This document shows, in pieces, positions 3 to 36,864 of a stretch of 51,735 nucleotides of DNA. Below the pieces are notes generated by a model, which saw only the letters and a list, made by a program, of their open reading frames with translations, made no database searches and was not told the DNA's origin. A program made the position numbers and the translations under genes. Numbering within the stretch: position 1 is the stretch's first letter; each line of letters begins with the position of its first letter. This DNA is from Deltaproteobacteria bacterium (GTDB lineage: Bacteria; Desulfobacterota; DSM-4660; Desulfatiglandales; HGW-15), in contig JARRRH010000001.1 in NCBI GenBank assembly GCA_037380925.1, positions 1 through 51,735 on the forward strand, given 5' to 3'.

Positions 3-233
3 CCCCTGGCCGACTCGATCGAATCAAAATACAATTTCTGGGGCCGAACGCACGCCTCCGAGCAGGACTCGGCGGCAATCGCAACTACCATCGTGAACCT
101 CGGCGAGTTTACCAATCTATCCGGAGCGCGAAGAGCCGCACATCGGAAAGGCCGAGCAGTTTGCGGCCACAGTGAGGGGTCTTTTTGCGCCCTGGCTCCG
201 TCCGCAAGCAAAGCGGTTTCGGAAGATCATTGA
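3..233 (+). CDS. 3' end of an upstream gene, product unknown (partial at window edge)
   Basis: This frame is open from the window edge to TGA at 231-233. Third codon positions are mostly G/C (PLADSIESKYNFWGRTHASEQDSAAIATTIVNLGEF...). No family recognised. It would overlap the next start by ~62 nt. Confidence 0.3.
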   Translation, partial: PLADSIESKYNFWGRTHASEQDSAAIATTIVNLGEFTNLSGARRAAHRKGRAVCGHSEGSFCALAPSASKAVSEDH

Positions 234-2070: not shown

Positions 2071-2086
2071 TGGAGGAGGGCTTTTG

Positions 2087-2917: not shown

Positions 2918-3713
2918 GGGATATTTGTAGGTTTTGAAGGTTTTCTGTGTCAAGATCCTTAGCCAGTAGGGCGTACTATAGGAAAGATTTTACCAAAAAG
3001 TGGCACGAGTTTACTTAGCGGGTGGTATTCTTTTCCACACCCGAAGCACGTTTCTGGCCGGCCGCAGTAATCGTCCGATATCTCTATAAAATAATGGGCT
3101 TTTTTGCCTCAAGAGACGGCACAGTTCTTGCTCTATAATGTTTGATTTTATGGGCAGCTTTTCGGGTACGGTGAGGTGCCTGCGGCGTGGTTTGTTTCGC
3201 CCGTTTTCTGTTGACAAAATAGAGACTTCGGGTTAAGAAATTATTGGTTTTGCCGCTCTTTATCAGCCTCTCTTGTTATCCGTTGATCGGTCTAAAAAGG
3301 AGCATCATCATTTCTATCAATCGTTGGACAGACGCGACAGACCAGATGAGATGCCGAGCCTCTAGACCTCCGGCCGTCGTGGCCACTTCCAGGACCACAG
3401 GGTCCAATCAGATTTTTCTTCCATCAATCTTCAGAAATTCGAATACCAGCTTGGCCGGCAAGCGAGCTGAACAAATTGCGGCTCTTGCCTGACATGCGCA
3501 ATATTCTGCCCCAACGTGTGTGTTCTTTACATAATCGATAAGCGGTGCATTTGGCTTTTTTCCGGGTCGAAATCATCAACTGTTCTTTAGGCTAAACGCC
3601 CTGCAGGGCAAACGAACCAGATATTCATTCTTTCCCATTTAACCCCTTTCTTCATCCAATGCGCAAGGCGACATCCTTTCTTCGCCTGGGCTTTGGAAAA
3701 ACGGAGACCGACC

Positions 3714-21900: not shown

Positions 21901-24900
21901 TACCTGTTTGCGGCCCAGGATATCGGCGAAGTGGGGAATCCTATCACCACCGAGGTCGGCAATATCGAAGGCAAGTCCACGGCGGGCAGCACCTGGGTAA
22001 CGAACACCGGTCCGTTGACCGTGGGCGGGGTGGTGGACAGCTCTGACCCGGGGATGCTGGGTGGAGGGTCTGCCATCATCACGGCGACAAGTCCCATTAC
22101 TGTGGAAGAGGATTTGGTGTTCCCCAATGAAATCATCCTGACGGCAGGAGACTCCCCGGATGCCGGTGACGACCTGGTCGTGGTCAGCGGCAAGAGAGTC
22201 CAGTCAGAGTATGTGGAGTTGCGAGCAGGGGACAACTTGATCATTGAAGAAGACGCCGTGATCGAGGCGACAGCCCTGAAGCTCTTCGGAGATTACGGCA
22301 ATGCCGACCCGGAGGTCGGGTCCACCATAGACCCGCGGGGAGAGATCATTGCCACGTCGGTTGAGATCCTCGGTGAAGCCGACGGCGATGTGTTTGCTCT
22401 CGGGAATCTTTCGGCACCTGCGAGCGTTACAGGCGGGGGAGGGACAGACGAGCTGATCGGACCCGACGAGCCCGGTGGGCCGGACGGGCTCATCAATAGC
22501 TGGGAGATCCTGGGTCCCAACAGCGGCAATCTAAATGAGATGTTTATCATTTTTTCCGAGGTGGAGAGCCTTACCGGCGGCTCCGGGGATGACACTTTCT
22601 ATTTCCGCGGTCCCGGCAGCGTGGACGGCGTCGTGGACGGCGGTGCCGGGTTCGACATCCTGGACTTCCTCCAGTCCGATTATATCCAGCAGGCGGCTCA
22701 GGATTTCATAGACGTGGACCTGCCCATCGGAGACCCTCCTCCCGTGCCCTTTGCGGCAACCGGGGGGATTGTCCGGATCGAGGACATCAAGGTCATTCTC
22801 TTGGCGGAACTCCAGGAGGACGGCACGCTGGTTCTGAACATGGGGCCGCGGGCGGCGGAAAGGCTGACGATCAATACTGAAGACGGCGACGAGGTGTTTA
22901 CCCTGGGTCACGTGAAGGGGGATCCGGCCGATGCGGAGGGGGAGACCATAGCCGTGTCGGCCTTCGGCTTCACCCTGGAATATGACGGGGTTTCCTCAAT
23001 TCGCGGCTCGGGAGGCGAGGGGAACGACACCATCTTCCTCAGCAGTGACATCATGGCTCCGGCCGAACTGGACGGAGGTCCGGGGAGCGACACCTTGACG
23101 GGCGGTGCGGGCAACGACATTTTGCTCGGCGATGCGGGAATCATTACCCGCTCTTACAATGATGACGAGACCCTACGCAAAGATGTGCTTCTGACCGACG
23201 TGGGGATGATCACAGGTGCGTATACGCCAAGCGATTTAGGCTGGAAGGATGTGAGCTCAGCTGTTGTTTCGGATCTATTGGAAGCAGATCTCGTTCTGCT
23301 GACTGGTGCTTATAACGGTGACGGAAGCAAACATTTTGTTGAGAATTCGTGGGGTTGCCTAGAGTGGGAGACCCAGTTGCTTCTCGTCTTGCTCCTTGAG
23401 GACGGAGATGACATCCTTGACGGGGGTGCCGGGGATGACGCCCTGTTCGGCGGCCGCGGGAATGATTCAATTGGGGGCGGCGATGGGCGCGACTACCTGG
23501 TGGGCAACGCCGGGAATGACGACCTGGACGGCGGGGATGAAAACGACATTCTGGTGGGCGATGACGTCACGCGAATCGTACCTGACAGTCCGCTTCCCAA
23601 TGTGTTGCGCGGCCTCCATATGACGGGCGGGAACGGCCACGGTGGAGGAATCGTCCTGGGCGACTCGGGAACAACCATTGTGCCCATCGTCTCGGTTCTT
23701 CCCAATAAGGACCTAGACCCGCTTGTCGGCGTGACGACTCACGTCAGCAGCGACCTTCCCATCCTGCCGGATGACAATGTGCTTGACCGTGCTGATGGCA
23801 CGTACCTGGTGCCCTTGGCCTCGATCGTCACGGACGTGGGGCACCACCTTGATCTCCTTCCCGGCAATGATAGGCTCTTCGGAGGCGAAGGCGATGACAA
23901 GCTTGTAGGCGACAACGCGGTCGTTTTTTCTCCGGGCGTAACGATCAACCAGGCATTTCTTGAATCAGCCTTCGGTATGACATGGGATCTCCTCGCGGCC
24001 CTCGATGATTTCGGAGACTTGATCCATCGACTGCACGACGCCGTAGGAGATGGGGATAACTGCCACCCGTGCTACAGCTACGAGGATGTGGTTGTGGATC
24101 AGACATTCTGTCTGGGGAATGACTTCCTAGACGGCGGTGGCGGCAACGATTTTATGGTAGGCGACGAATTGACGTTGAAGGCCCCCTCGATTGGCGTGCC
24201 GACGGATCTGGTCCACGATTTCCACCACCTGATCAACGACCTTGAGGACGTTGGGGATGAGGCCGACTGGGCACTCCATGAGCTCGATGATGTGGCCCAT
24301 GACCTGCGGGATGACGTGATTCCCGTAAAGCACGGTAAAAAACGGATTAAGGGCCACCTCGTGCACCACATCGACCGCATCTTCGTCGGGAATGACTCGC
24401 TGGTGGGCGGTGACGGAGATGACCTCATGGTGGGTGACAACTGGAGCTACCTCGCACCTGAGATAACAGTCACATCAGGTGGATGGCCGGGCTACCATGG
24501 GTTCTGGCACCATGATCATGGTTGGGGATATGACCGCGGCAACCACTATGGGTGGTACAACGGAGGTCACAACAAGGATGGTCATGACGGACCGGGAGAC
24601 GTGTGGATCGTCGGTAAAGATACGATGGACGGCGGTGGAGGCAATGACGTGATGTTCGGTGACAGTATCGCGCTGACAGAGCCGACCATGGCCTCGACCG
24701 CAGATCTGTGCTGGTGGAAATTCGGAGCTGTTCATCACAAGGTCGAGGACATTCTTGATGACATTGTCAAGATGGGCCAGTATGGCGATGTCAGCGAGAG
24801 CTGCAACGCGGTGAACGGTGGCAATGATTACATTGTCGGCGGTGACGGGGATGACATGCTTTTCGGTCAGGGCGGTAATGACAAGCTCTACGGTGACGCC

Positions 24901-25179: not shown

Positions 25180-25221
25180 GGGAATTTAAAAGGCATCTTG
25201 CAGCCACGGAATGGAAAAGAG

Positions 25222-25265
25222 GGCCGAACCACACAAGGACAAACTTCTGGTGGTTCGGCCTTTTT
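25222..25265 (+). terminator. Intrinsic terminator after the giant gene
   Basis: An 11-bp perfect GC-rich stem, GGCCGAACCAC (25222-25232) / GTGGTTCGGCC (25250-25260), is followed directly by TTTTT (25261-25265), 43 nt after the stop codon. Confidence 0.8.
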
Positions 25266-25343: not shown

Positions 25344-26525
25344 GTGGAAAAGGAAGAGCATAGCAGTAAAGAGAATGGAAGAGGTTCAAATCCCGCAACG
25401 GAGAATACCCAGGTAAAGATCCGGTGGGATAGATCCGATACCCGGAGTGCCTACGCTGATCGTTTCAATGTGATGGTCACCCGGGAGGAGATTATTCTGT
25501 GTTTTGGTTTGAACCAGGCCCTTGATGTCGGCCAGAAGGAGATGACGGTTCAACTTTCGAACGGAATCGTCCTGAGTCCCTTTGCAGCCAAACGGTTAGC
25601 CAATGCACTGAACCGTGTCCTCCAGGACTATGAGTCCAAATATGGTCCTCTGAAGGTGAAGGCTGCGCCGTCAACGGATTGGGCTCAGATTGCGCCACTC
25701 AGCGAGAAGCCCCCCTTTTCTGAGAAAGCAGGCCTGCTTTTTCATCTCGTAAAAAACCTCAACACAGAATACGGTTTTGAGCGTTCTTTCAAGATTTCCG
25801 AAAAAACATTGCTTGGAAATCGATTCCTGTTCACCATGAGTAAGCACGCCATAAGACAAAATCCCGATGAAGCCATATTGAATATCTGCAGAAAAATGGA
25901 TATGCCGAAAAAATTGCTGGAAGTCTTCCATGGAAACTTGCCATCTGCAAATTATGTCCATTTCGGGTTTGAGGAGGACGAAAAAAGTTACATTTACAAA
26001 GCCTATTTGGAGTTCTGGACCGACTGGGAAAATGAAATTGGGAAAAAGTCAAATCCGTCCGACCCGTTCTTGGTGCATTTGGGATTCAAGTGGGACGTAT
26101 CCGAGCCTACCCGATGCGTACTGACAAGATACACTTGCTATCCTTTCCTTTCTGTGGAAAATATCCTGGAGAGGTTGTCAAAGGTCTTTTACGGTGACCG
26201 CTACAGAACCCCTTTTGAGATCGCAAAAGGCATTGTCACTCTTGCTTCAAATAGAATATCCCACGAAAAGATCTTATATATCGAGGCAGAAGAAGAGAAC
26301 AATCCGAGAAGATCATTCGACATGAATATGTACAGGGCCAAAGTTCGTTTAGAAGAACTTTACCCTCTTTTGATGGACATGTGCCAGCACTATTCAATTC
26401 CCACAGCGGAATTTGATATCTTATATGACCAATTCAAAGCCAAATTATTTGGCCACTTGTCCGGTGGTATTGACAGGGAGGGAAAGGATTTCTTAACCGT
26501 GTACTACGGGGTGGAAGGGCATTAA
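25344..26525 (+). CDS. DUF3467-like N-terminal module fused to an uncharacterised ~270-aa domain
   Basis: GTG start. Residues ~23-105 (QVKIRWDRSDTRSAYADRFNVMVTREEIILCFGLNQ...VQLSNGIVLSPFAAKRLANALNRVLQDYESKYGPL) fit the DUF3467 pattern as I recall it (YSN..i.hs..EFvlDF...RIvLtP.hAKRLl.aL..ni.kYE..fG). I do not recognise the remainder. Confidence 0.75.
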   Translation: MEKEEHSSKENGRGSNPATENTQVKIRWDRSDTRSAYADRFNVMVTREEIILCFGLNQALDVGQKEMTVQLSNGIVLSPFAAKRLANALNRVLQDYESKYGPLKVKAAPSTDWAQIAPLSEKPPFSEKAGLLFHLVKNLNTEYGFERSFKISEKTLLGNRFLFTMSKHAIRQNPDEAILNICRKMDMPKKLLEVFHGNLPSANYVHFGFEEDEKSYIYKAYLEFWTDWENEIGKKSNPSDPFLVHLGFKWDVSEPTRCVLTRYTCYPFLSVENILERLSKVFYGDRYRTPFEIAKGIVTLASNRISHEKILYIEAEEENNPRRSFDMNMYRAKVRLEELYPLLMDMCQHYSIPTAEFDILYDQFKAKLFGHLSGGIDREGKDFLTVYYGVEGH

Positions 26526-26590
26526 CTCAGGAAGCCTTGGAAGGTGCCGAGGCGACTGTTATCGTAGAATGTTAATTGTGAAAGAAGAGC

Positions 26591-27493
26591 ATGACTTACA
26601 CAAGAGTTGATCTTACCCAATACGTTGTCATTTCTATTTGTTTTAGTTGTAACAACGACTGCAGCATCTGTATGCTGTCGGGGCTTAAAAGAAAGTTTCC
26701 TGCCATAGGCTTCGACCGTTTCAAGAAAGTGATCATCGATATTGTGAATAGCGGCAGGTTCGAGAATCTGATCCTTTCAGGAGCAGAGGTGACGACCTTT
26801 AACGATCTGGACAAGTATGTCCAATTCGCCGCTTCTCTTGGATGGTTCAAGAAAATACAAGTACAGACAAACGGCAGAAGACTCAGTGAAAAAGGATATC
26901 TGAGGCATCTGATTGATGGTGGCGTCAATGAGTTCTTCATCAGCATCCACGGCCTTGACGACGTTCATGATGCGATCACGCGCATGCGAGGGTCCTTCAA
27001 AGAGACGAGGGAAGGCCTTAAAAACCTTGAAGCCTTTGACGTTAATGTGATCAGCAACACGGTTCTGACAAAAACCAATCTTCACGATATGGCTCGCCTC
27101 ATGACCTTTTTGTCCAATGAAAGGATCAGCGAGATTCAGTTGTGGAACTTCTTCCCTATGGAGAGAACGGACACCAAAGATCTTGTGGTAAGCATGAAGG
27201 ATTTCACGGAAGTTCTCCCCGAAATACTTTCCATTGTAAAGAGAGCCGGTAAGCCCTTGGTTTTGAAAAGTTTTCCCGAGTGTCTTTCTATGGGGGAGCC
27301 TGGGTTCTTCGACAGCTTGTTTCCGGTGACCGTGCTTCCAGATGTTTTTTGGAGAAAATTCAGCGAAAGCGGGTTCGGAACGTGTATTTACAGGCAGAGA
27401 GAGGAGTGCAAGGCTTGGAAATGCTGGGGTCTCTCCAGTGCCTATGTTCAGAAATACGGAGATGAAAGAAATCTCCTGAAGCCTATGATGTGA
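26591..27493 (+). CDS. Radical SAM protein (300 aa, single core, Cys-rich C-terminus)
   Basis: CNNDCSIC (CxxxCxxC) near the N-terminus, followed by LILSGAEVT and QVQTNG strands typical of the radical SAM half-barrel. C-terminal CIYRQREECKAWKCWG. Confidence 0.85.
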   Translation: MTYTRVDLTQYVVISICFSCNNDCSICMLSGLKRKFPAIGFDRFKKVIIDIVNSGRFENLILSGAEVTTFNDLDKYVQFAASLGWFKKIQVQTNGRRLSEKGYLRHLIDGGVNEFFISIHGLDDVHDAITRMRGSFKETREGLKNLEAFDVNVISNTVLTKTNLHDMARLMTFLSNERISEIQLWNFFPMERTDTKDLVVSMKDFTEVLPEILSIVKRAGKPLVLKSFPECLSMGEPGFFDSLFPVTVLPDVFWRKFSESGFGTCIYRQREECKAWKCWGLSSAYVQKYGDERNLLKPMM

Positions 27494-28362
27494 GAAAGAC
27501 CATGGACGGATTGGAATACATGACCGCTCAGGATGTCTTCTTTGATTTCTGCTTGTGGGAATACACCCCTCTAGCGCCCTGGGAAAACAAATTCAGCTCC
27601 TCAACCCTGCTTTTTCACTCCTTTAAAGTCGCCGGTCTCGATGAGCGGATTTTCGATCTTATCCAAGCGATCCGTAAAGGGATCGGTCTTTCACGCACAG
27701 TGTGGGGAGTCAAGCAGTTAGGAGACGATATCCGATGGGAATTCTACTTTTATGATTACAGGAGAAGAGAAAGGGAGAGGTCCATTACGAAAGTCCTGGA
27801 AATCATGCGGCCTTTTGTCCGCTGTGGGATGAAAGTCAATGAAAATTACCACTATTTCATGTTCTCTATCGATATTAGCGGCGATCTTTTTGCAAAAGCC
27901 ACGGAATTAGAAGAGATCCATATGTACATCGGCAACGTCGGCAGCACCGTTTCATCAGGAATCTGTTACTCCTTAAAAAATGAGGGGACAAGGCTTGAAA
28001 ATTTTTACTTCTTTTTTGATGCGAAAACACAGGGGGATGAGATCTTAGGTAAGGTCGTTAGTTCTGCCTATATTGACACAACCGTAATAAAAATCGATCA
28101 AATTCTCTGGCCTGAAATGAGAGACTGCAAGGTCATCGTGGTGGCCAACAAGCAGAGTAATGACGCCGTCTATTTTTCAAGAATCAATGTGGATCAGCTG
28201 ATCTTTTTCCTCAACAGGATGAACTATCCAAATGAGCTTATCTCTTTCATAGAGAAAAACAGGGCCAAGCTGGACCACCTGCAATATGACGTCGGTTATG
28301 ACTACAAGATGGACGGAAAAGATTTAATGATTCTGAAAAGCGGCTACTATGGGATTTTTTGA
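27490..28362 (+). CDS. Uncharacterised protein, distant paralog of the C-terminal domain of the 25344 gene
   Basis: GTG start overlaps the preceding stop (GTGA at 27490-27493); alternative ATG at 27502. By-eye collinear similarity to gene 25344: VWGVKQLGDDIRWEFYFYDY vs VHFGFEEDEKSYIYKAYLEF; ...DGKDLMILKSGYYGIF vs ...EGKDFLTVYYGVEGH. Confidence 0.7.
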   Translation: MRKTMDGLEYMTAQDVFFDFCLWEYTPLAPWENKFSSSTLLFHSFKVAGLDERIFDLIQAIRKGIGLSRTVWGVKQLGDDIRWEFYFYDYRRRERERSITKVLEIMRPFVRCGMKVNENYHYFMFSIDISGDLFAKATELEEIHMYIGNVGSTVSSGICYSLKNEGTRLENFYFFFDAKTQGDEILGKVVSSAYIDTTVIKIDQILWPEMRDCKVIVVANKQSNDAVYFSRINVDQLIFFLNRMNYPNELISFIEKNRAKLDHLQYDVGYDYKMDGKDLMILKSGYYGIF

Positions 28363-28394
28363 ATGACTGCTGGAAATGACCTTCGAGAGTAACG

Positions 28395-29507
28395 ATGATC
28401 ATCAGCATATACAACCTCCACAATATGTGTGAAAATAATACTTTTTTCCTCTCCAGAGCCTGGCGCTACTTTGAGCTCAACGGCCACACGGTCACGGATG
28501 CAGGGGATGAAGTTGACCTGGTTTTCATCGGCGGTTGTGCAGTCACGGACCTGATGCGTTCGCGGTGCGAAGACACTATCCTGAAAAGGATACAACAACT
28601 CCAGCAGGCATACTTTGTGATCTTCGGATGCCTGGCAGCCTTCCCGGAGGGATTCCGATCGATAACTGGCCGGAATGCTGATCGCCTTCGCCTTATTCCT
28701 TACCAGGACAGCGGTGAACTGGACGAACTGATTAAGGCACGGATCCCCTTTGACATGGTCAATATTAGTCGGCTGAAAGGACACGTACCCTACCAACCCC
28801 GGGTGGGGCCGGACGATTTCTATGTGCTGATCGCCCAGGGCTGCGTTAATAATTGCAGTTACTGCAACATAAAAAGGGCCAAGGGAAACGTGGTGAGCCG
28901 TTCGGAAGAAGCCATCGAGGGTGAGGTGAGGGAGTTATACTCTCTTGGAATCCGGACCGTGACGCTTTTGGGTGACGACTGCGGCTCGTATGGTCTCGAT
29001 CGCGGCTCGACCCTGCCGAAGTTGATCACGCAGCTCAGCAGGGTGGGGCCCGAGCTGCGGTACAAACTCTACACGGTTTTCCCTCCCCTTTTCCTACAAT
29101 ACGCCGCACAACTGGAGCCGTTCTTTGCACAGCGCCGCGTGCCGTATGTGTGCCTTCCAGTACAGTCAGCAGCCCCTCGGGTTCTGGACCTGATGAATCG
29201 GCACTACGATCCTGACCAGCTGGCAGGGGTGATCGCTCGTCTCAGGTGTCTGGATCCCGAGGTCTTTGTCTACTCCCATTTCATCTTTAACTTTCCGACG
29301 GAAACCTGGGGCGAATTCGAGCAGAGCATTGCTTTCGCACGGCACTTTGACCACTGTGTATTCATCGGCTACGGCGAAAATAGCTCGACGCGGGCAGCAG
29401 CGCTTACCCCGAAATGCAGCAACCATGAATTAGAGGACAAGGCGCGGCGACTTGAGGAGTTGGTCGAGCGGGGTGAGTTAAGGGCCTTCGTGGTGCCGTG
29501 CCCTTGA
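28395..29507 (+). CDS. MiaB/RimO-family methylthiotransferase-like radical SAM protein without a TRAM domain
   Basis: N-terminal three-Cys domain (NMCENN ... GGCAVTD ... FGCLAAF). Radical SAM core IAQGCVNNCSYCNIKRAKGNVVSRS...TLLGDDCGSYG. The protein ends soon after the core, leaving no room for a TRAM fold. Confidence 0.8.
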   Translation: MIISIYNLHNMCENNTFFLSRAWRYFELNGHTVTDAGDEVDLVFIGGCAVTDLMRSRCEDTILKRIQQLQQAYFVIFGCLAAFPEGFRSITGRNADRLRLIPYQDSGELDELIKARIPFDMVNISRLKGHVPYQPRVGPDDFYVLIAQGCVNNCSYCNIKRAKGNVVSRSEEAIEGEVRELYSLGIRTVTLLGDDCGSYGLDRGSTLPKLITQLSRVGPELRYKLYTVFPPLFLQYAAQLEPFFAQRRVPYVCLPVQSAAPRVLDLMNRHYDPDQLAGVIARLRCLDPEVFVYSHFIFNFPTETWGEFEQSIAFARHFDHCVFIGYGENSSTRAAALTPKCSNHELEDKARRLEELVERGELRAFVVPCP

Positions 29508-29566
29508 TCCCGGGATCGGGCTGGCCGTACACGCGTTTGGGGCTCAGGCCAAAACAGACGTGGTGA

Positions 29567-30748
29567 ATGAAAATGTTACCCAGCACACACGACTTTCAGC
29601 ATGGGATGATTTCCATTTTAAATGCGAGCAAACGGTGCGAGCCCAGCGCCTTTTTGTTCACGAAAGCGGTGAGGTTTTTTCTGGTGAACGGGTATGGCAT
29701 AGGGAACAATATCGACCAGAGCGAGATAATCCTGGTGAACACATGCTGCGTTACGGAAGACAAAATAGCAGCCTCCAGGGAGGCTCTCGACTGCGCCAGA
29801 AACCAAGGGAATGGAAAGCGGGTTGTCCTGTTCGGCTGTATGGCCAGTCTCCCTCTTCCGGGATTGGAACGGGAGTATCTGATCTGCATCGGCCCCAAGA
29901 ATCTGGACGCGCTGGATACTCATTTCCCGCACCATACGTCGGTCAATGATATCCCTGTCAATCAACTGTCCCCGCAGCTCTACGAACCAGGACAGGGACT
30001 CGGATACGGAGACTACTTTGTGCTGATTGCCCAGGGCTGCTCTAACCAGTGCTCCTACTGCAACATTAAGCGGTGCAAAGGAGAGGTGAGAAGCGAACCT
30101 GCCGAAAGGATCCTTCCGCAGATCCGGAGAGGCCTTTCCCTGGGGGTGCAGGAATTTGCCCTTTTGGCTGATGACTGTGCGAGCTATGGTCGTGATCTTG
30201 GGACCGACCTCGTGCAGCTCATTGAACAATTGTTCACCTCAAAACCCGATTTCGGTCTGAAACTGGGGTATGTTTATCCGCAATTTATCCTGAGGCATTT
30301 CACCAGGTTGAAGAAAATCTTCGGAACCGGACGGATCAGGTACCTCAACATTCCGGTGCAGTCAGGCTCACAAAGAATCCTGGATCTCATGAACCGGCGT
30401 TATTCCATCGACAGAGTAATGGAAGCCGTCCGGGAGTTGCACGAGGTGGCACCACGCACGACCTTCTGCACGCACATCATGATCAACTTTCCGACCGAGT
30501 CCCATGACGATTTTCTTAAATCCCTCGCGGTTGCAGATGGCTTCGACGAGGTGCTCTTCCTGCATTACTCGGACAATCAGGACACCGCCGCTGCCCGCAT
30601 CCTCCCTAAAGTGTCTGAGCCAGAGGTCCGCAGGCGGCTGGACATGGCTTCCCATTACGCGAATCATTGGAGGCGGGGGCAAAGCGCCGTCATCAAAGAT
30701 TTCAACTGTGATATCCCCTACAACATGCTTAGAACCATCGAAGGATAG
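29567..30748 (+). CDS. Second MiaB/RimO-family methylthiotransferase-like radical SAM protein without a TRAM domain
   Basis: KRCEPS ... NTCCVTED ... FGCMASL, then IAQGCSNQCSYCNIKRCKGEVRSE...LLADDCASYG. Paralog of the preceding gene. By alignment to that paralog, ATG 29606 (MISILNASKRCE) may be the true start. Confidence 0.8.
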   Translation: MKMLPSTHDFQHGMISILNASKRCEPSAFLFTKAVRFFLVNGYGIGNNIDQSEIILVNTCCVTEDKIAASREALDCARNQGNGKRVVLFGCMASLPLPGLEREYLICIGPKNLDALDTHFPHHTSVNDIPVNQLSPQLYEPGQGLGYGDYFVLIAQGCSNQCSYCNIKRCKGEVRSEPAERILPQIRRGLSLGVQEFALLADDCASYGRDLGTDLVQLIEQLFTSKPDFGLKLGYVYPQFILRHFTRLKKIFGTGRIRYLNIPVQSGSQRILDLMNRRYSIDRVMEAVRELHEVAPRTTFCTHIMINFPTESHDDFLKSLAVADGFDEVLFLHYSDNQDTAAARILPKVSEPEVRRRLDMASHYANHWRRGQSAVIKDFNCDIPYNMLRTIEG

Positions 30749-30751
30749 AAC

Positions 30752-32287
30752 ATGGCCCTGCCTCTGATAAAGGTCGTGCAGTTAACAGTAACAAACAGGT
30801 GCCAATGCAATTGTCAGCACTGTGGTGTCTCAAAGCTCCGACAAACGATCAAGGGCGAACTCACATTGAAGCAGATCGATTTACTATTTCGGGACTTCAA
30901 GCTTGCCGGATGCCTGGTCGTTGATTTATTCGGCGGCGAGCCCACGTTGCGTCAAGACCTCTTCGAAATCATCGAGCTTGGGAAATTCTATGGGTTCATC
31001 GTGTCGTTGGAAACGAACGGATATGTCGTGGATCACGCGTACATGGAACGGCTCGCTGCAGCAGGACTGGACCTGATTTATCTAAGCCTGGATGATTACC
31101 GGGCAGAGATCCATGACAGAATACGAAGGAAGAAGGGAAGCTTTGAGAGGGCTGTCCGTGCCCTGGAGCTTGGAGCAAAGACGGATATCGTCATGCACGT
31201 CTCGACGGTTCCTCAGACGCGCGAGTATTTCACCAATGGAAATATCAATCGGTTCATGGAGTTTGTGCTGGAGCACGGCGCGGAGCAGGTGCGTCTCCTG
31301 CTGCCCCGATTTGTCGGCCATTCGATTCGTGAGGGATGTGGTCCTCTGGGTGCCGGTGAAGAGAGGGAGCTCTTTTCCTATGTCTCCGCGGGCTATTACG
31401 ATTACATGTACGTGCATACCCCGGGGACGCCCCTTGGGGAGACTAATGTGTGCACGGCCAAGCAGGTCTTCTGTCACGTCATGAGTAACGGCTGGGTTGC
31501 GCCTTGCCCTTATTTTCCGCTGGTTTTCGGGGATGCAACGCGGGAATCGATCGTTGATATCTTTGAGCGTATCCAGGGACATCCTCTGGTGCGGCTTGGC
31601 GGCGACTATTGTCCTATGAGGAATGAGGAGTACATCAACACCCATATCCGAAAGTTGGGGCTCGATCGACCGTTTTTCCCTATTACGGTCGACAACCAGA
31701 TCAATCTCGGCGCTCCGTGCGGGGCGAGATGCCCGGGATGCGCTCACGGAGTGCGATCGGTTCCGAGGTCCGCTGACGAAATTGTTCGAGAGATAAGGGA
31801 GGTACCGTCAGAGTATAGGCGCCTAGAATTCTATGGGGGGGACGCATTCCTGCGGGATGACCTGTTTGCCATCCTCGACCACGTTTCTGCAGCAAAAAAT
31901 ATTACTTTGTGGTCGGCGTGCAGCCAAATGCCGAAAGACCGAGCTTTCATGGACCGCTTGCGATCCTATCGCATTGAGGCTATCAAGGTTCCTTTGCCTT
32001 TTCAGCCCATCGGTGACATTGGGCGCTCCGATCCCGGTAATGGGTTTAGAGAGGCATTGCAAGGAGCGTCCTCAATGAGTAGGTGGGGGTTTCCCATCCA
32101 CCTCTATGTACCGATGATTCGTATGGCAGAATTTCACGCGGCTTTTGCGACGAGCGTTCATGAGTTGGGCGCGGAAAGGCTATACGGTTTCGCAAGAGAC
32201 CTTGAACACCCCTTAGCCAATTCCGTCGCCTGCTTTGGCAGAGAACTGGAGCGTGTGCGGCTCTTATGGGCACGAGAAGCGACCTAA
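30752..32287 (+). CDS. Radical SAM protein with two tandem CxxxCxxC cores and a SPASM/twitch-like Cys cluster (511 aa)
   Basis: Core 1: NRCQCNCQHCG (30800-30823) then DLFGGEPTL. SPASM-like CTAKQVFCHVMSNGWVAPCPYFPLVFGD...YCPM. Core 2: PCGARCPGCAHG (31718-31741) then EFYGGDAFL. The two halves align to each other. Confidence 0.85.
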   Translation: MALPLIKVVQLTVTNRCQCNCQHCGVSKLRQTIKGELTLKQIDLLFRDFKLAGCLVVDLFGGEPTLRQDLFEIIELGKFYGFIVSLETNGYVVDHAYMERLAAAGLDLIYLSLDDYRAEIHDRIRRKKGSFERAVRALELGAKTDIVMHVSTVPQTREYFTNGNINRFMEFVLEHGAEQVRLLLPRFVGHSIREGCGPLGAGEERELFSYVSAGYYDYMYVHTPGTPLGETNVCTAKQVFCHVMSNGWVAPCPYFPLVFGDATRESIVDIFERIQGHPLVRLGGDYCPMRNEEYINTHIRKLGLDRPFFPITVDNQINLGAPCGARCPGCAHGVRSVPRSADEIVREIREVPSEYRRLEFYGGDAFLRDDLFAILDHVSAAKNITLWSACSQMPKDRAFMDRLRSYRIEAIKVPLPFQPIGDIGRSDPGNGFREALQGASSMSRWGFPIHLYVPMIRMAEFHAAFATSVHELGAERLYGFARDLEHPLANSVACFGRELERVRLLWAREAT

Positions 32288-32306
32288 ACCGGAAGGAAGC
32301 ACCAGG

Positions 32307-33542
32307 GTGAATTTCAATAAGAATCGGGTATTGCTACTTTATCCCGCTGCAGAGACAGTGCAATGGAACCTTATCCCGTTGTCGTTGCTCTACGTGGCTC
32401 AACCTCTTATCGAAGAGGGTATAAATGTGGAGATCATTGATCAAAGGCTTGAAAGAGATTTTTTTGGAAGAGTGCATCAACGAATCACTCCAGATCTTAT
32501 ATGTATCGGAATTAGCTGCATTACCGGGCCTCAAATAGAGCAGGTCATTAGGATCTCTGAATTCATCAGGAAGGTTACAAACACTCCTATCGTGCTTGGA
32601 GGACCCCATCCCACTCTCTTGCCCGAACAGACGCTCGAGTCTGGACTTGTCGATTATGTTGTGATCAGTAAAGGTGAAGTACCTTTTTTGAACCTTGTAA
32701 GAGCGCTGAAAATGAATGGATCTGCTCAGAGAGTTCCCCAGGTGGGGTACAAGGAAAACGGAAAAATTGTTATCCATAAAGGCCACGTGCCGGAAATCAT
32801 TGTTCGCAGAATACCCTACCACCTCGTCTCCCGGTACGGGAGACCTTCGACCGTTCCCATCATCTCTTCCTACGGGTGTCCATACCATTGCTCGTTTTGT
32901 GTGGAAAAGGTCTTACATCCGACCTACTATGAAATACCGATCCGTGATGTCTTGTTCATGGTCGAGGAAGCCCTAAGCCTAGGTCCAGAGTTCATAGACT
33001 TTATTGATGATAATTTTCTCCTAAACAGTAAAAGGGTGATTGAACTTTTTTCTTCCTGCCAGGGGAAAGGCCTCGACTTCCGTTGGTTATGTACGGGCAG
33101 GGTGGATGGGGTTTCAAGTCTGGATGACGAAACCTTGAGGTTTTTGAGAAAAAGGGGTTTGGTATGTATCTATTTCGGAATAGAATCTGGTTCTAAAAAG
33201 ATATTGAAATTGATTAATAAAAGGATAACGCCGGAGATGGTTCTAAGGCTCAATTTGAGACTGAGAAAAGAGGGGATCATCCCACACTACAGTTTTATGG
33301 CTGGGTTCCCAACGGAGACGGGAGAGGATATCGGAAAGACGATAGGATTAATGAATCGGCTGAAAGAGGAAAACCCCGAAGCCGTGATTTGGAAGATCAA
33401 CCAGTATACTCCTTATCCTGGCACCGAATTGTTCGACCTCGCCATCCAAAACGGTTTTAAGCCTCCTGAGAAATTCGAGGAATGGAGTCATATCCATTTT
33501 TATTCTAAACACCATGCGGGGCCATACGACCTGCACTACTAG
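32307..33542 (+). CDS. B12-binding-domain radical SAM protein (class B type)
   Basis: GTG 32307 follows GGAAGGAAG, 19 nt after the previous stop; the tracked ORF start at 32235 overlaps the upstream gene. Rossmann-like B12 domain (VLLLYPA..., ICIGISCITGPQ, PIVLGGPHPT), then SSYGCPYHCSFCVE. Confidence 0.8.
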   Translation: MNFNKNRVLLLYPAAETVQWNLIPLSLLYVAQPLIEEGINVEIIDQRLERDFFGRVHQRITPDLICIGISCITGPQIEQVIRISEFIRKVTNTPIVLGGPHPTLLPEQTLESGLVDYVVISKGEVPFLNLVRALKMNGSAQRVPQVGYKENGKIVIHKGHVPEIIVRRIPYHLVSRYGRPSTVPIISSYGCPYHCSFCVEKVLHPTYYEIPIRDVLFMVEEALSLGPEFIDFIDDNFLLNSKRVIELFSSCQGKGLDFRWLCTGRVDGVSSLDDETLRFLRKRGLVCIYFGIESGSKKILKLINKRITPEMVLRLNLRLRKEGIIPHYSFMAGFPTETGEDIGKTIGLMNRLKEENPEAVIWKINQYTPYPGTELFDLAIQNGFKPPEKFEEWSHIHFYSKHHAGPYDLHY

Positions 33543-33661
33543 TAAAAATGCATTAAATCACGTGAGACGGGCCCCTCTCCACCTTTCGCGTTGACCAGGA
33601 GAGAGGAAAGCACTAAATCTCATGTGCTTCTGCAAACAAGAATAGATCAGAAAAGGTTCAT

Positions 33662-35014
33662 ATGGCTTCGGGGAATCATCAACGGAAGAACCAAGGCAAA
33701 GAGTTTGATTATCTCTGCGTGGATGACTTTATTAAGAACCTCTTTGATGCCCGAGCCCTAGCGACTGCATTTGAAATACGGCTTATCGACTCCCTTCTTC
33801 AGGACAAACATGCCACGGTTGATTCCCTAACAGTACAATTGGGCATGGACAGCCGTGGAATGCGCTTACTTCTTGACCTTCTCCTTGCCAATCGCGTGGT
33901 CGAAAATAAGAATGGCGACCTGAGTCTCACAGAAGAGTTTGCTCATGCGCTACAATTTCGTGAGCTGTTAGAGTTGAAACTCATCATGACAAATTTCGCC
34001 GCCCATGACCTCTTGGATTACTTTAGTGAATTGGTGAGTCGCCCTGAGCAATTTGTGAACAAAGCCCGCTTTTTCAAATTATTTTCTTATAATAGATGTT
34101 TTGACTATAGCCAGGAGAATTACGAGCTGACCAAACGGTGGATGCGGATTACGACCGTCTTGACCAAATACGAGGCGCAGGCATGTATCAAATACCACGA
34201 CTTCAGCCGATACAGACGTATTTTGGACATCGGAGGAAACAGTGGCGAATTTGTCCGCCAGATTTGCAAGATATACCCGAGGGTTTCAGCTACGGTTTTT
34301 GACCTCCCTCTTGTTTGCGATATCGGGCTGGAGCATATCCGGTCCGAATCCGAAGCGGATAGGATAACATTTATTAAGGGAAACGCATTAACCGATCCTT
34401 TGCCGGAGGGTTTTGATCTGATCACCTTTAAATCCATGCTCCATGATTGGCCGGAAAGAGAGGCAAAGAAGTTCATGGAAAAAGCGATCCACTCTTTAGC
34501 GTCTGGAGGAACATTGCTGATTTTCGAGAGGGGTCCGATTGAAATTGGTGAGACTCCATTCCCGTATTCAATGATTCCATTCCTTGTTTTCTTCCATTCT
34601 TTCCGATCACCGGTAATATACGAAGAGCAGCTTGAAATGGACCACGCGACGTCATACATGGCGAAAGATAGCAAAGATAACAGCAGTGAGAAGTCCGGCA
34701 TGAGCAGCAGCGCCGCACAGGTCGGCGATCAGGTGAGAATCCGCTGGGACGGTTCCAACATGAGGAGCGCTTATGCCAACGTTTTCAATGTCACCGCTGC
34801 GAGGGAGGAAGTTGTCCTTTTGTTTGGGATGAACCAAGCCTTTGATGCGGGCCAGAAAGAACTCAAGGTCCAGCTCTCCGACCGAATCGTCCTGAGCCCG
34901 TTCACAGCCAAACGGATGCTTACCGTGCTAAACAATGTCATGAAGGACTACGAGTCGAAATACGGCCCCCTTGACGTGCAACCCTCTCAACCAACGGACT
35001 CTTCGTTACAATAG
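33662..35014 (+). CDS. Class I SAM-dependent O-methyltransferase (family-2 type with N-terminal winged-helix dimerisation region) fused to a C-terminal DUF3467-like module
   Basis: SAM motif RILDIGGNSGEF, then ATVFDLP, ITFIKGNAL, DLITFKSMLHDWPE and GGTLLIFE. C-terminal residues (34730-34978) QVRIRWDGSNMRSAYANVFNVTAAREEVVLLFGMNQ...RIVLSPFTAKRMLTVLNNVMKDYESKYGPL closely match the N-terminus of gene 25344. Confidence 0.8.
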   Translation: MASGNHQRKNQGKEFDYLCVDDFIKNLFDARALATAFEIRLIDSLLQDKHATVDSLTVQLGMDSRGMRLLLDLLLANRVVENKNGDLSLTEEFAHALQFRELLELKLIMTNFAAHDLLDYFSELVSRPEQFVNKARFFKLFSYNRCFDYSQENYELTKRWMRITTVLTKYEAQACIKYHDFSRYRRILDIGGNSGEFVRQICKIYPRVSATVFDLPLVCDIGLEHIRSESEADRITFIKGNALTDPLPEGFDLITFKSMLHDWPEREAKKFMEKAIHSLASGGTLLIFERGPIEIGETPFPYSMIPFLVFFHSFRSPVIYEEQLEMDHATSYMAKDSKDNSSEKSGMSSSAAQVGDQVRIRWDGSNMRSAYANVFNVTAAREEVVLLFGMNQAFDAGQKELKVQLSDRIVLSPFTAKRMLTVLNNVMKDYESKYGPLDVQPSQPTDSSLQ

Positions 35015-36167: not shown

Positions 36168-36368
36168 AATATATCCCCATTTCCTAAATCGTATCGGTTC
36201 TCGATAATACACCTATTTGTGGGCAAATAGTAGGCAAGATTGGCAGGTTTTTAAGGTCTGCCTCGCCCGGGTGCACAGCATAAAATGTACTTCGATCAAA
36301 AAAGCGGTTGAGGATCTCTTAGCCGGCGGAGTTCAGGAAATCGTCGAGGATTTTCAGTGTTTTTTTGG

Positions 36369-36860: not shown

Positions 36861-36864
36861 CCTC

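What the first reader, a model, noticed from the sequence alone, without database searches (positions are those of the whole stretch)
25344..35014. Eight-gene operon with six radical-SAM cores, two methylthiotransferase-like enzymes, a B12-rSAM, an O-methyltransferase and unknown scaffold proteins: candidate undescribed modification/biosynthetic system
Seen in sequence: eight co-directional genes have gaps of 65, -4 (GTGA overlap), 32, 59, 3, 19 and 119 nt. The operon is bounded upstream by a strong terminator (25222-25265) and downstream by a convergent gene. The products are as follows. (1) A DUF3467-like module plus an unknown domain. (2) A small rSAM (CNNDCSIC). (3) An unknown paralog of the domain in gene 1. 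(4, 5) Two MiaB/RimO-like rSAMs with the extra N-terminal three-Cys cluster but no TRAM domain. (6) A 511-aa protein with two CxxxCxxC cores plus a SPASM-like cluster. (7) A B12-binding rSAM (CPYHCSFC). (8) A family-2 O-methyltransferase fused to a second DUF3467-like module. Established knowledge: MiaB/RimO enzymes install methylthio groups on tRNA or ribosomal protein S12. Class B rSAMs typically methylate unactivated carbons. SPASM rSAMs commonly crosslink or modify peptides. Inference: this is a multi-step radical tailoring pathway (C-S, C-C and O-methyl chemistry). I do not recognise the gene combination as any characterised cluster. I found no precursor-peptide gene, protease, transporter or regulator in the operon. 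The substrate could be a protein or peptide encoded elsewhere, one of the operon's own products, or a small molecule such as a methylthiolated or methylated aromatic or lipid.
Basis: partly seen in the sequence, partly recalled or inferred. Interest (0 to 1): 0.85.

Follow-up and report, generated by a model that had tools for sequence, protein, structure and literature searches.

The report
Tailoring genes for a giant exported protein
The radical-SAM operon is real and matches no described pathway, and it recurs across bacterial phyla next to a giant surface-type protein and a dedicated SecA-like export machine, so it most likely modifies that giant protein.

Summary
The eight ORFs, their spacing, the six radical-SAM cores and the upstream terminator are all present as described.

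Two details do not hold:
- Gene 3 has no sequence similarity to gene 1. Both are predicted ABBA (aromatic prenyltransferase) barrels, so they share a fold only.
- The O-methyltransferase–DUF3467 "fusion" is probably an assembly collapse of about 200 nt. Public contigs and relatives show two separate genes.

The main result is the context.
- **Core module.** Genes 1, 2, 3 and the O-methyltransferase form a conserved four-gene module. It sits beside LEPR-XLL giant proteins of up to 19,211 aa.
- **Export set.** Where DUF3467 is present, the module also sits beside an export set. This comprises a SecA-like ATPase without wing/scaffold, a PqqD-like/M50-protease/HlyD fusion, two membrane-fusion proteins and free DUF3467 proteins.
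- **This genome.** All of these parts are present. The giant gene lies directly upstream (3693–25179) and the rest on contig C276.
- **Add-on cassette.** The methylthiotransferase-like pair plus the double radical-SAM gene recurs inside this module in two different gene orders. It also occurs free-standing, in two genomes that still carry the export system.
- **B12 enzyme.** It was found only here and in one close relative.

Best reading: an accessory tailoring module for the giant exported protein. The chemistry and the substrate are inferred, not shown. I found no description of this system in the searched literature.

The parts
172..2070 (+). SecA-like ATPase (SecA_DEAD, preprotein cross-linking and P-loop domains; no wing/scaffold domain). 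The true start is probably near position 100.
   Evidence: Pfam. NCBIfam: it matches SecA models only to about position 600 of 790-814, below all cut-offs. Orthologues of 662-664 aa sit in the same system in 12 or more loci. Frame check.
1943..2917 (+). Small HlyD/RND-type membrane-fusion (periplasmic adaptor) protein
   Evidence: Pfam. TIGR01730 scores 113 bits, above its cut-off of 94.9. It follows the SecA-like gene in L004, L005, L007, L068, G201 and G255.
3693..12998 (+). Giant protein, N-terminal part (probable Met at 3714). It has a polybasic N-terminus and the LEPR-XLL motif FIEPLEPRLLLDAE at 3792-3833. Its last ~40 residues look like out-of-frame read-through.
   Evidence: NF012209 LEPR-XLL scores 23.7 bits, above its cut-off of 17. 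Sequence.
12913..25179 (+). Giant protein, C-terminal part. It probably forms one gene with 3693-12998, broken by a one-base frame change near 12868-12880. Features: 16 RTX-like GGxGxD repeats at 22432-24970; a His/Trp/Tyr-rich stretch at 24478-24591; a conserved C-terminal motif at 25015-25134.
   Evidence: RTX repeats PF00353, E = 5e-24. Frames. The C-terminal motif is shared with L007 and L009, and in shorter form with L005, L016 and L052. Coordinates.
25217..25265 (+). Intrinsic-terminator-like hairpin with a U-run, between the giant gene and g1
   Evidence: Fold -28.8 kcal/mol, z = -6.46; 0 of 200 shuffles fold as well.
25344..26525 (+). g1: DUF3467 module (about residues 12-104) plus an ABBA prenyltransferase-fold barrel (about residues 122-393)
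   Evidence: PF11950, 67 bits. AF2 model with the C-domain at pLDDT mostly above 90. The top 50 Foldseek hits are all ABBA prenyltransferases. VIA Z = 16.4, 249 residues, 3.8 A against CymD/DMATS. 941 homologues.
26591..27493 (+). g2: small radical-SAM enzyme (CNNDCSIC; four further C-terminal Cys). It always co-occurs with g3 and is sometimes fused to it.
   Evidence: Pfam and NCBIfam; the best named hits are HxsC4/HxsC, far below cut-off. g2 and g3 occur together in 24 of 24 loci. Fusions P0123 and P0156.
27490..28362 (+). g3: second ABBA prenyltransferase-fold barrel, with no sequence similarity to g1
   Evidence: AF2 pLDDT 95.4. Foldseek top hits are FamD1, AmbP3, KgpF, EpzP, NphB and CloQ. 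VIA Z = 13.3, 249 of 290 residues. hhalign against g1 is negative. 461 representative clusters.
28395..29507 (+). g4: MiaB/RimO-like radical-SAM enzyme, TRAM-less
   Evidence: UPF0004 plus Radical_SAM. TIGR00089 scores 167 bits, below its cut-off of 251. Cys spacing.
29567..30748 (+). g5: MiaB/RimO-like radical-SAM enzyme, TRAM-less; 35% identical to g4
   Evidence: The family has about 200 clusters.
30752..32287 (+). g6: 511-aa protein with two radical-SAM cores and a weak SPASM-like Cys cluster. It always follows the methylthiotransferase-like gene(s).
   Evidence: Two Radical_SAM stretches; SPASM at 19.1 bits, below cut-off. Synteny.
32307..33542 (+). g7: B12-binding radical-SAM enzyme (class B)
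   Evidence: PF02310 plus PF04055. The best named hit is the PhpK family, 127 bits against a cut-off of 600. An orthologue was seen only in L008.
33662..34636 (+). g8, OMT part: family-2 (small-molecule aromatic type) O-methyltransferase. In this assembly it lacks about the last 29 residues.
   Evidence: PF00891, 92 bits. The nearest solved relatives are DnrK, ASMT, AlpH, DtpM and MmcR. The alignment to the L008 OMT stops at residue 325 of 354.
34637..34650 (+). Junction where public contigs carry about 200 additional bases (probable assembly collapse)
   Evidence: Joint 34636->34651 in X1, X2 and X3, with loose ends that continue the OMT frame and supply an RBS.
34658..35014 (+). g8, DUF3467 part: most likely a separate DUF3467 gene
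   Evidence: PF11950, 71 bits. 61% identical to the free-standing DUF3467 of L008. Alignment A3.

Best explanation
The operon is the enzymatic tailoring module of a larger, conserved system that matures and exports one giant protein.

**Substrate.** The LEPR-XLL/RTX giant gene lies directly upstream (3693-25179, about 7,100 aa once the frame break is read through).

**Export set.**
- A SecA-like ATPase without the wing/scaffold domain.
- A fusion of a PqqD-like domain, an intramembrane M50 metalloprotease and a HlyD domain.
- A GAF-HlyD adaptor.
- A small HlyD adaptor.
- Free DUF3467 proteins.

**Proposed mechanism (inferred).**
1. The giant protein is made in the cytoplasm.
2. DUF3467 modules occur both free, beside the translocon genes, and fused to the g1 enzyme. 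I propose that they dock the enzymes to the substrate or to the export complex.
3. Two ABBA-fold barrels (g1, g3), working with the g2 radical-SAM enzyme and an aromatic-type O-methyltransferase, modify side chains.
4. In this lineage a recruited cassette adds methylthio-type or other radical chemistry (g4-g6) and B12-dependent methylation (g7).
5. The N-terminal LEPR-XLL region is recognised and cut by the M50 fusion. The SecA-like motor and the adaptors then pass the protein across the envelope, and the C-terminal RTX repeats fold outside.

**Shown here:** gene content, predicted folds, synteny and co-occurrence.

**Inferred:** that the giant protein is the substrate, the role of DUF3467, all of the chemistry and the export route.
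For: **1. Synteny of the whole operon.**
- L008 (g1 81% identical) keeps g1-g7, the OMT and DUF3467 in the same order.
- L066, L067 and L068 keep g1, g2, g3, g4, g5, g6 and (where present) the OMT, next to giant ORFs.
- L068 holds the complete system in one piece, through to the SecA-like gene and the MFP.

**2. Core module.**
- In 45 species-level loci found with g1, g2 and g3 occur together in 24 and never alone. The OMT is present in 20.
- g2-g3 fusion proteins exist.

**3. Link to the giant protein and the exporter.**
- Giant ORFs of 1,500 aa or more (up to 19,211 aa in G201, a genome of the same family) flank the module.
- N-termini carry LEPR-XLL-type motifs in the window, in L041, L045, L048 and L049 and in G201.
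- The translocon genes lie within 10 kb in 13 of 31 loci that have DUF3467, and in 0 of 14 that lack it.
- In a sample of 400 species genomes of the phylum, g1 was found in 5 and strong M715 orthologues in 10. Both were found in 3, against 0.125 expected if independent.

**4. The same system is complete in this genome.** Contig C276 carries DUF3467, the GAF-MFP and M715, and it ends where the window starts with the SecA-like gene.

**5. Peptide-maturation (RiPP)-like parts.** The N-terminal half of M715 matches the daptide intramembrane metalloprotease model at E = 5e-44. It also gives weak PqqD-like hits.

**6. Enzyme folds.**
- The g1 C-domain and g3 are ABBA barrels.
- Conserved Lys/Arg/Tyr/Asp residues recur at alternating positions on the strands.
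- ABBA enzymes of cyanobactin pathways (PagF, LimF, KgpF, DciF, all among the hits) prenylate peptide side chains (established knowledge).

**7. The g4/g6 cassette is tied to the system in three ways.**
- After g3: window, L008, L066-L068.
- Between g1 and g2: G255.
- Free-standing: L063 and L064, whose genomes G410 and G411 both carry an M715 orthologue with DUF3467 beside it. The third free-standing locus, L065, lies in a genome that is not held, so it could not be searched.

**8. Precedent.** RimO, a member of the same superfamily, methylthiolates a protein residue (established knowledge).
Against: - No modification has been observed. Nothing here shows that any of the enzymes touches the giant protein.
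- The OMT's nearest solved relatives, and most ABBA enzymes, act on small aromatic molecules.
- A strong terminator separates the giant gene from g1.
- The translocon occurs without the g1 module in 7 of 10 genomes with strong M715 orthologues. L007 and L009 have g1 but no g2, g3 or OMT. The module is therefore dispensable for export.
- G410 has the g4-g6-type cassette, but no g1 was found there.
- Candidate target motifs in the giant protein do not track the presence or absence of the enzymes.
- The PqqD-like and SPASM matches are below their cut-offs.
- The locus in this assembly shows a frame break in the giant gene, and possibly one in M715. It may be damaged or mis-assembled.
Confidence: 0.55

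Rival explanations
1. Small-molecule pathway. The ABBA barrels, radical-SAM enzymes and OMT build a prenylated, methylated or methylthiolated aromatic metabolite or lipid-like cofactor. The compound is used with the giant protein, for example as a ligand, an anchor or a co-exported compound. It is not made on the giant protein's own residues.
For: - The OMT is closest to small-molecule aromatic O-methyltransferases (DnrK, ASMT, MmcR, CalO6).
- Most solved ABBA relatives use small aromatic acceptors.
- No enzyme of the operon carries a recognisable peptide-recognition (PqqD/RRE) domain.
- A terminator separates the operon from the giant gene.
- The g4-g6 cassette also stands alone in other neighbourhoods.
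Against: - No scaffold-forming genes for an aromatic core (PKS, NRPS, chorismate-derived) lie in the operon or in the conserved neighbourhood.
- g1 is fused to DUF3467, the same module that stands free beside the translocon genes.
- The module is found next to giant genes in several phyla.
Confidence: 0.2
2. The enzymes act on another protein of the system, not on the giant protein. The target could be the multi-copy, highly conserved DUF3467 proteins used as a carrier or substrate, or a translocon component.
For: - DUF3467 occurs in 2-4 copies per locus.
- It is unusually conserved: 64% mean column identity, against about 45-50% identity for g1 across the same loci.
- It has a variable Ser/Gly/Thr-rich N-terminal tail.
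- It is fused to g1.
Against: - No conserved Cys- or aromatic-rich tail typical of carrier or scaffold peptides is visible.
- DUF3467 also occurs widely outside this system: Thermus, Bacteroides and Methanosarcina controls.
- In beta- and gamma-proteobacterial, cyanobacterial and Pirellulales loci the g1 family lacks DUF3467 yet still sits beside LEPR-XLL giants.
Confidence: 0.1
3. Unrelated housekeeping radical-SAM genes (tRNA, ribosome or cofactor modification) that merely lie next to each other and next to the giant gene.
For: - g4 and g5 belong to the MiaB/RimO superfamily, and some sources annotate them as tRNA or S12 methylthiotransferases.
- The g4-g6 cassette is free-standing in L063-L065.
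Against: - The order is conserved in five loci, and a second arrangement exists in G255.
- The g5 clade was found in 0 of 400 other genomes of the phylum at E <= 1e-80. It is therefore not housekeeping.
- Both searchable genomes with a free-standing cassette carry the export system.
- All named equivalog cut-offs are missed and the TRAM domain is absent.
Confidence: 0.05

Closest known systems
Cyanobactin-type peptide prenyltransferases (PagF, LimF, PirF, KgpF, DciF) and DMATS/CloQ/NphB ABBA enzymes
   Same: The g1 C-domain and g3 have the ten-stranded ABBA barrel. VIA gives Z = 16.4 and 13.3 over about 249 residues. Conserved basic and Tyr residues recur at alternating strand positions. Some ABBA enzymes modify ribosomal peptides.
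   Different: No sequence-level match to any ABBA Pfam or NCBIfam family. g1 is fused to DUF3467 or occurs as a tandem double barrel. One barrel is partnered with, and sometimes fused to, a radical-SAM enzyme. Activity and prenyl donor are untested.
RimO/MiaB/MtaB methylthiotransferases
   Same: g4 and g5 have the UPF0004 three-Cys domain plus a radical-SAM core. RimO modifies a protein residue.
   Different: No TRAM domain. Scores are below every family cut-off. They occur as a pair or triple followed by a double radical-SAM protein. The clade is rare.
Type I secretion of giant RTX adhesins (LapA/LapBCE with the LapG protease; the ice-binding adhesin MpIBP)
   Same: A giant protein with C-terminal RTX repeats, HlyD-type adaptors, and an N-terminal element with a dedicated protease.
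   Different: No ABC transporter gene in the locus. The ATPase is a SecA paralogue. The protease is an intramembrane M50 fused to a HlyD domain. The N-terminus is LEPR-XLL. Tailoring enzymes are co-encoded.
Accessory Sec system (SecA2/SecY2/Asp with glycosyltransferases) for serine-rich repeat adhesins
   Same: An extra SecA paralogue is encoded with a very large surface protein and with enzymes that modify it before export.
   Different: No second SecY in G000, G201 or G255. No Asp proteins. A diderm-type set of adaptors. The enzymes are radical-SAM, ABBA and OMT types rather than glycosyltransferases.
Omnitrophota giant proteins ('Archaeovorins'; West-Roberts et al. 2023, bioRxiv 10.1101/2023.11.21.568195)
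   Same: Giant proteins associated with SecA DEAD and preprotein-binding domains that lack the wing/scaffold, together with methyltransferase and radical-SAM domains.
   Different: In Omnitrophota these are domains fused into the giant polypeptide, which has many transmembrane helices. Here they are separate genes, with ABBA barrels, DUF3467 and an M50-HlyD fusion.
RiPP maturation systems with leader recognition and an intramembrane protease (daptides; YydH/LiaK epipeptides) and heavily radical-SAM-tailored proteusins
   Same: The M715 N-terminal half is homologous to the daptide protease (E = 5e-44) and has a PqqD-like region. Class B and SPASM-like radical-SAM enzymes and methyltransferases act as tailoring enzymes.
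   Different: The putative precursor is 7,000-19,000 aa, not a peptide. The protease is fused to a HlyD domain. The score is below the equivalog cut-off (151 against 300 bits). No RRE is recognisable on the tailoring enzymes.

Membership tests
MiaB/RimO methylthiotransferase family (g4, g5) | N-terminal UPF0004 domain with three conserved Cys for the auxiliary cluster | tested here: met
   PF00919 hits (g5 at 30.8 bits, above cut-off; g4 at 24.6 bits, just below). Cys spacing C12-C48-C79 and C24-C60-C91.
MiaB/RimO methylthiotransferase family (g4, g5) | Central radical-SAM CxxxCxxC core | tested here: met
   CVNNCSYC and CSNQCSYC; PF04055 above cut-off.
MiaB/RimO methylthiotransferase family (g4, g5) | C-terminal TRAM domain | tested here: not met
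   No TRAM hit. The proteins end at model position ~361 of 429.
MiaB/RimO methylthiotransferase family (g4, g5) | Score above the curated family cut-off (TIGR00089, 251 bits) or any equivalog cut-off | tested here: not met
   167 and 188 bits. All equivalogs (RimO, MiaB, MtaB) are far below cut-off.
ABBA aromatic prenyltransferases (g1 C-domain, g3) | Ten-stranded antiparallel barrel of repeated alpha-beta-beta-alpha units | tested here: met
   On predicted structures only: pLDDT above 90 for the g1 C-domain and 95 for g3. Foldseek E = 3e-7 and 7e-8, with all top hits ABBA enzymes. VIA Z = 16.4 and 13.3.
ABBA aromatic prenyltransferases (g1 C-domain, g3) | Sequence membership in a described ABBA family | tested here: not met
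   No Pfam or NCBIfam hit for these regions. A profile search of PDB sequences found nothing.
ABBA aromatic prenyltransferases (g1 C-domain, g3) | Prenyl-diphosphate binding and transfer to an aromatic or peptide acceptor | not testable with these tools
   Only an indirect hint: invariant Lys/Arg/Tyr/Asp/Glu at alternating strand positions.
Class B (B12-dependent) radical-SAM enzymes (g7) | N-terminal B12-binding domain plus radical-SAM core | tested here: met
   PF02310 at 66 bits and PF04055 at 81 bits, both above cut-off; CPYHCSFC. No named equivalog is reached.
SPASM/twitch radical-SAM maturases (g6) | C-terminal SPASM Cys-rich domain above cut-off | tested here: inconclusive
   PF13186 at 19.1 bits against a cut-off of 21.5. 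Cys at 234, 241, 252 and 287, followed by a second CxxxCxxC core.
LEPR-XLL giant proteins (upstream gene) | N-terminal LEPR-XLL domain (NF012209) on a very large protein | tested here: met
   23.7 bits against a cut-off of 17; motif FIEPLEPRLLLDAE. 3101 + 4088 aa in two frames.
RiPP-type maturation system | Leader-recognition (PqqD/RRE) domain | tested here: inconclusive
   A PqqD-like region in M715 only, at 22.0 bits against a cut-off of 23.4; ScmD E = 2e-4. None in g1-g8.
RiPP-type maturation system | Short precursor peptide with a leader and a core | tested here: not met
   No small precursor gene. Intergenic gaps in the operon are 119 nt or less. The only candidate substrate is a giant protein.
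Type I secretion system | ABC transporter with a HlyD adaptor and an RTX substrate | tested here: not met
   Adaptors and RTX repeats are present. No ABC transporter gene is called in the conserved block of L004, L005, L007 or L068, nor between 1 and 25179 of the window. Genome-wide use of a distant ABC or TolC was not tested.
Accessory Sec (SecA2/SecY2) | Second SecY and Asp proteins | tested here: not met
   One SecY match each in G000, G201 and G255.

The most novel reading that the evidence does not exclude
A previously unrecognised envelope-spanning export and maturation machine treats a 7,000-19,000-aa LEPR-XLL protein the way RiPP pathways treat a peptide.
- An N-terminal leader is read and cut by a PqqD-like/M50/HlyD fusion.
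- A wing-less SecA paralogue, rather than an ABC transporter, drives transport through HlyD-type adaptors.
- DUF3467 modules recruit a new clade of ABBA prenyltransferase-fold enzymes, radical-SAM enzymes, TRAM-less methylthiotransferases and a B12 methylase. These decorate the giant protein before or during export.
Probability: 0.35. Interest if true: 0.92.

Novelty: new variant of a known kind. Interest (0 to 1): 0.8.

Why it matters
- **A function for LEPR-XLL proteins.** If the reading holds, it gives a first functional context to a widespread class of giant bacterial proteins. It also gives one to DUF3467 and to two large unannotated protein families (941 hits for g1; 461 representative clusters for g3).
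- **A new way to power export.** It points to export of very large proteins across a diderm envelope by a SecA paralogue coupled to HlyD-type adaptors.
- **New enzymology.** It would extend ABBA prenyltransferase, methylthiotransferase and class B radical-SAM chemistry to a protein substrate of unprecedented size.
- **A testable link to Omnitrophota.** The still unexplained SecA-like, methyltransferase and radical-SAM domains inside Omnitrophota giant proteins become open to experiment, because here the same kinds of part are separate, expressible genes.

Tried and rejected
- **Complex prediction.** SecA-like protein (alignment A4) with DUF3467 (A3): no answer, score 0.00. This is not evidence either way.
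- **Expression.** No RNA holder is listed among the public runs, so expression is unknown.
- **DUF3467 fold.**
  - No solved relative by sequence or profile.
  - The protein atlas returned only DUF3467 clusters.
  - It was modelled poorly within g1.
  - SecB was not found in 13 related genomes, so a SecB/DUF3467 profile comparison could not be made. A SecB-like role is only a guess from the predicted strand-strand-strand-strand-helix pattern.
- **g1 against g3.** No similarity by BLASTP or hhalign.
- **Profile of g1 against PDB sequences.** Nothing.
- **PADLOC.** Only generic viperin-like radical-SAM matches; the locus is not a known defence system.
- **Rfam on the whole window.** No match.
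- **Consensus scan.** No more promoter- or terminator-like sites than in shuffles, and it missed the large-loop terminator.
- **Literature.** Searches for DUF3467, LEPR-XLL, SecA-like with membrane-fusion proteins, ABBA with radical SAM and giant, TRAM-less methylthiotransferases in RiPPs, and SecA/HlyD/M50/PqqD returned no description of this system.
- **g5 orthologues.** Not found in 400 other genomes of the phylum at E <= 1e-80.
- **Motif correlation.** I looked for a link between giant-protein C-terminal motifs and the presence of g2, g3 or OMT. None is apparent.
- **HxsC lead.** g2's nearest named relatives are maturases of His-Xaa-Ser repeat peptides, and the giant protein has a His/Trp/Tyr-rich stretch. 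I noted this and did not pursue it. L007 and L009 have the stretch without g2.

Full report
**1. The observation**

All eight ORFs exist on the + strand with the stated coordinates and spacing.
- g1: DUF3467 plus an unannotated 270-aa domain.
- g2: a small radical-SAM enzyme (CNNDCSIC).
- g3: no family hit.
- g4 and g5: MiaB/RimO-like, with the UPF0004 three-Cys pattern and no TRAM domain. They are 35% identical to each other.
- g6: two radical-SAM cores with a sub-threshold SPASM match.
- g7: B12-binding plus radical-SAM domains.
- g8: a family-2 O-methyltransferase plus DUF3467.

The hairpin at 25217-25265 is strong (-28.8 kcal/mol, z = -6.5). The downstream gene is convergent. No named NCBIfam equivalog comes near its cut-off for any of the eight products.

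**2. Two corrections**

*g3 is not a sequence paralogue of g1.* BLASTP and hhalign find nothing. Structure prediction does show that both are ABBA prenyltransferase-fold barrels.
- g1 residues ~122-393: pLDDT mostly above 90. The top 50 Foldseek hits are all ABBA enzymes. VIA gives Z = 16.4 over 249 residues at 3.8 A.
- g3: pLDDT 95.4, Z = 13.3 over 249 of 290 residues.
- In both alignments, invariant Lys/Arg/Tyr/Asp/Glu residues sit at alternating strand positions. I read this as a conserved cavity inside the barrel (inference).

*The OMT-DUF3467 fusion is very likely not real.*
- g8 aligns to relatives' OMTs only to residue 325 of about 354, then runs into a DUF3467 that begins with its own Met.
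- Contigs from three public runs, carrying most of the local depth, leave the window at 34636 and rejoin at 34651. One of these runs has no differences from the window at all.
- The loose ends continue the OMT frame (GLNFLDIKVK). They also supply an AAGGAG site ahead of the DUF3467 start.
- One 741-nt record implies that about 200 extra bases lie between the two points (inference from record lengths).
- Relatives encode two genes here.

**3. What surrounds the operon**

Upstream in the window lie three things.
- A 632-aa SecA paralogue. It has DEAD, preprotein-binding and P-loop domains but no wing/scaffold.
- A HlyD/RND-type adaptor.
- Two huge ORFs of 3101 and 4088 aa in different frames.

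The tail of the first huge ORF looks like out-of-frame read-through, and the second continues the same Gly/Ala/Ser-rich pattern. They are probably one gene with a one-base frame change near 12868-12880. This was not checked against reads.

The giant protein has these features.
- It starts with a polybasic stretch and FIEPLEPRLLLDAE, which is the NCBIfam LEPR-XLL domain (23.7 bits against a cut-off of 17).
- It ends with RTX repeats.
- It has a His/Trp/Tyr-rich stretch. This is the most aromatic 40-residue window in the protein.
- It has a C-terminal motif shared with relatives.

A second contig of the same genome, C276, carries a free DUF3467 gene, a GAF-HlyD adaptor and a 715-aa protein that I call M715. 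C276 ends where the window begins, and the gene order matches that of relatives. M715 combines three parts:
- a weak PqqD-like region;
- an intramembrane M50 metalloprotease homologous to the daptide protease (E = 5e-44, below the equivalog cut-off);
- a C-terminal HlyD domain.

**4. Comparative genomics**

*Size and range of the g1 family.* g1 has 941 detectable homologues. It was found in 45 species-level genome loci spanning Desulfobacterota, Rokubacteria, Verrucomicrobiota, Acidobacteriota, beta- and gamma-proteobacteria, Pirellulales and cyanobacteria.

*Gene content within 10 kb of g1 in those 45 loci.*

| Feature | Loci |
|---|---|
| g2 and g3 together (never one alone) | 24 |
| OMT | 20 |
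| SecA-like and/or M715 genes | 13 |
| Giant ORF of 1,500 aa or more | about 14 |

These are lower bounds, because many contigs end nearby. The translocon genes were seen only where DUF3467 is present: 13 of 31 loci against 0 of 14.

*Further support.*
- g2-g3 fusion proteins exist.
- Long g1 relatives are DUF3467-ABBA-ABBA tandems.
- A high-quality genome of the same family, G201, shows the full layout on one contig. The order is DUF3467-ABBA-ABBA, g2, g3, OMT, a 19,211-aa LEPR-XLL ORF, two DUF3467 genes, GAF-HlyD, M715, SecA-like and the adaptor. The ordinary 963-aa SecA lies a few kb further on.
- In a sample of 400 species genomes of the phylum, strong M715 orthologues occur in 10 and g1 in 5. 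Both occur in 3.

The export set is therefore the broader system, and the g1 module is an accessory to it.

**5. The extra radical-SAM genes**

- g4, g5 and g6 keep the same position (after g3, before the OMT) in L008, L066, L067 and L068.
- In G255 a g6 orthologue (59% identical) and one g4 orthologue (62%) lie between g1 and g2. This is a second, independent arrangement.
- The cassette also stands alone in unrelated neighbourhoods (L063-L065).
- The genomes of L063 and L064 each carry an M715 orthologue with DUF3467 beside it. One of them also has g1. The genome of L065 is not held and was not searched.
- The g5 clade is rare: it was found in 0 of 400 other genomes of the phylum at E <= 1e-80.
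- g7 has an orthologue only in L008. Distant B12 radical-SAM genes lie near the module in L012 and L016.

These genes are therefore linked to the system and are not housekeeping neighbours.

**6. Mechanism**

*Shown:* the parts, the predicted folds, the synteny and the co-occurrence.

*Inferred:*
- The giant protein is the substrate.
- DUF3467 is a docking or chaperone module shared by the enzymes and the translocon. It is very conserved, at 64% mean column identity.
- ABBA barrels with g2 and the OMT modify aromatic or other side chains.
- g4-g7 add methylthio-type and methyl chemistry.
- The M50 fusion removes the LEPR-XLL leader.
- The SecA-like motor and the adaptors export the protein.

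No second SecY exists in three genomes checked, so the channel is unknown.

The main rival is a small-molecule product. The OMT's closest solved relatives and most ABBA enzymes favour it. The absence of any scaffold-forming genes, and the DUF3467 fusion, argue against it.

**7. Comparison with known systems**

The system shares features with four kinds of known system.
- Type I secretion of RTX adhesins.
- The accessory Sec system.
- RiPP maturation.
- The Omnitrophota giant proteins, which carry wing-less SecA, methyltransferase and radical-SAM domains within one polypeptide.

It meets the defining set of none of them (see the membership tests). I found no description of it in the searched literature.

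**8. Verdict**

- The finding is real and matches no described pathway.
- Its interpretation changes from "self-contained orphan operon" to [quoted passage not shown].
- The organism is an uncultured Desulfobacterota-type bacterium. A genome of the same family is labelled Desulfobacteraceae.
- The operon DNA occurs in marsh, salt-marsh and marine-sediment metagenomes from several studies.
- Function remains computational inference.

Noticed in passing
window 3693-25179 (frame change near 12868-12880): The 3101-aa and 4088-aa ORFs look like one LEPR-XLL/RTX giant gene of about 7,100 codons, split by a one-base frame change in a GGCCCGG stretch. It could be a real lesion or an assembly error.
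   Followed up: partly
G000 contig C276 (loci L001, L054-L057), about 3405-5391: The M715 (PqqD-like/M50/HlyD) gene of this genome is matched in two overlapping frames (3405-4223 and 4213-5391). This suggests a second frame break in the same system. C276 probably abuts the start of the window.
   Followed up: partly
window 25035: Contigs from three public runs diverge from the window here. They read ...VEPCASWVKH, the variant of the giant protein's C-terminal motif seen in L007 and L009. Co-occurring strains therefore differ in the giant protein's C-terminus.
   Followed up: no
window 24478-24591: A His/Trp/Tyr-rich stretch (15 of 40 residues), conserved in the giants of L007 and L009. It is the most aromatic segment of a protein otherwise poor in these residues, and a candidate modification site.
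   Followed up: partly
window 97-171: The SecA-like ORF is open from the stop at about 94-96, and relatives are about 32 residues longer. Its start is probably upstream of the listed GTG at 172.
   Followed up: partly
L063, L064, L065: Free-standing cassettes of two or three TRAM-less methylthiotransferase-like genes plus a ~510-aa double radical-SAM gene, in unrelated neighbourhoods. In L065 the cassette lies next to hemE/hemH/hemY-like genes.
   Followed up: partly
P0194 (3798 aa) and P0156 (1031 aa): The g3-type barrel also occurs at the C-terminus of a 3798-aa protein. It also occurs fused behind two radical-SAM stretches in a 1031-aa protein.
   Followed up: partly
window 43286-46263: A ribonucleotide reductase large subunit with an ATP-cone, and a cob(I)alamin adenosyltransferase, lie about 10 kb downstream. 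[quoted passage not shown]
   Followed up: no
window 35148-37839 (- strand): A TPR/SPOR protein, a bactofilin and an M23 peptidase form a convergent cell-envelope/cytoskeleton cluster directly downstream. It is not conserved with the system in other loci.
   Followed up: no
L033, L034, L053: g1-type ABBA barrels without DUF3467 occur in cultured organisms: Anabaenopsis tanganyikae CS-531, Anabaenopsis elenkinii CCIBt3563 and, weakly, Massilia sp. H-1. None of the other module genes lies within 10 kb.
   Followed up: no
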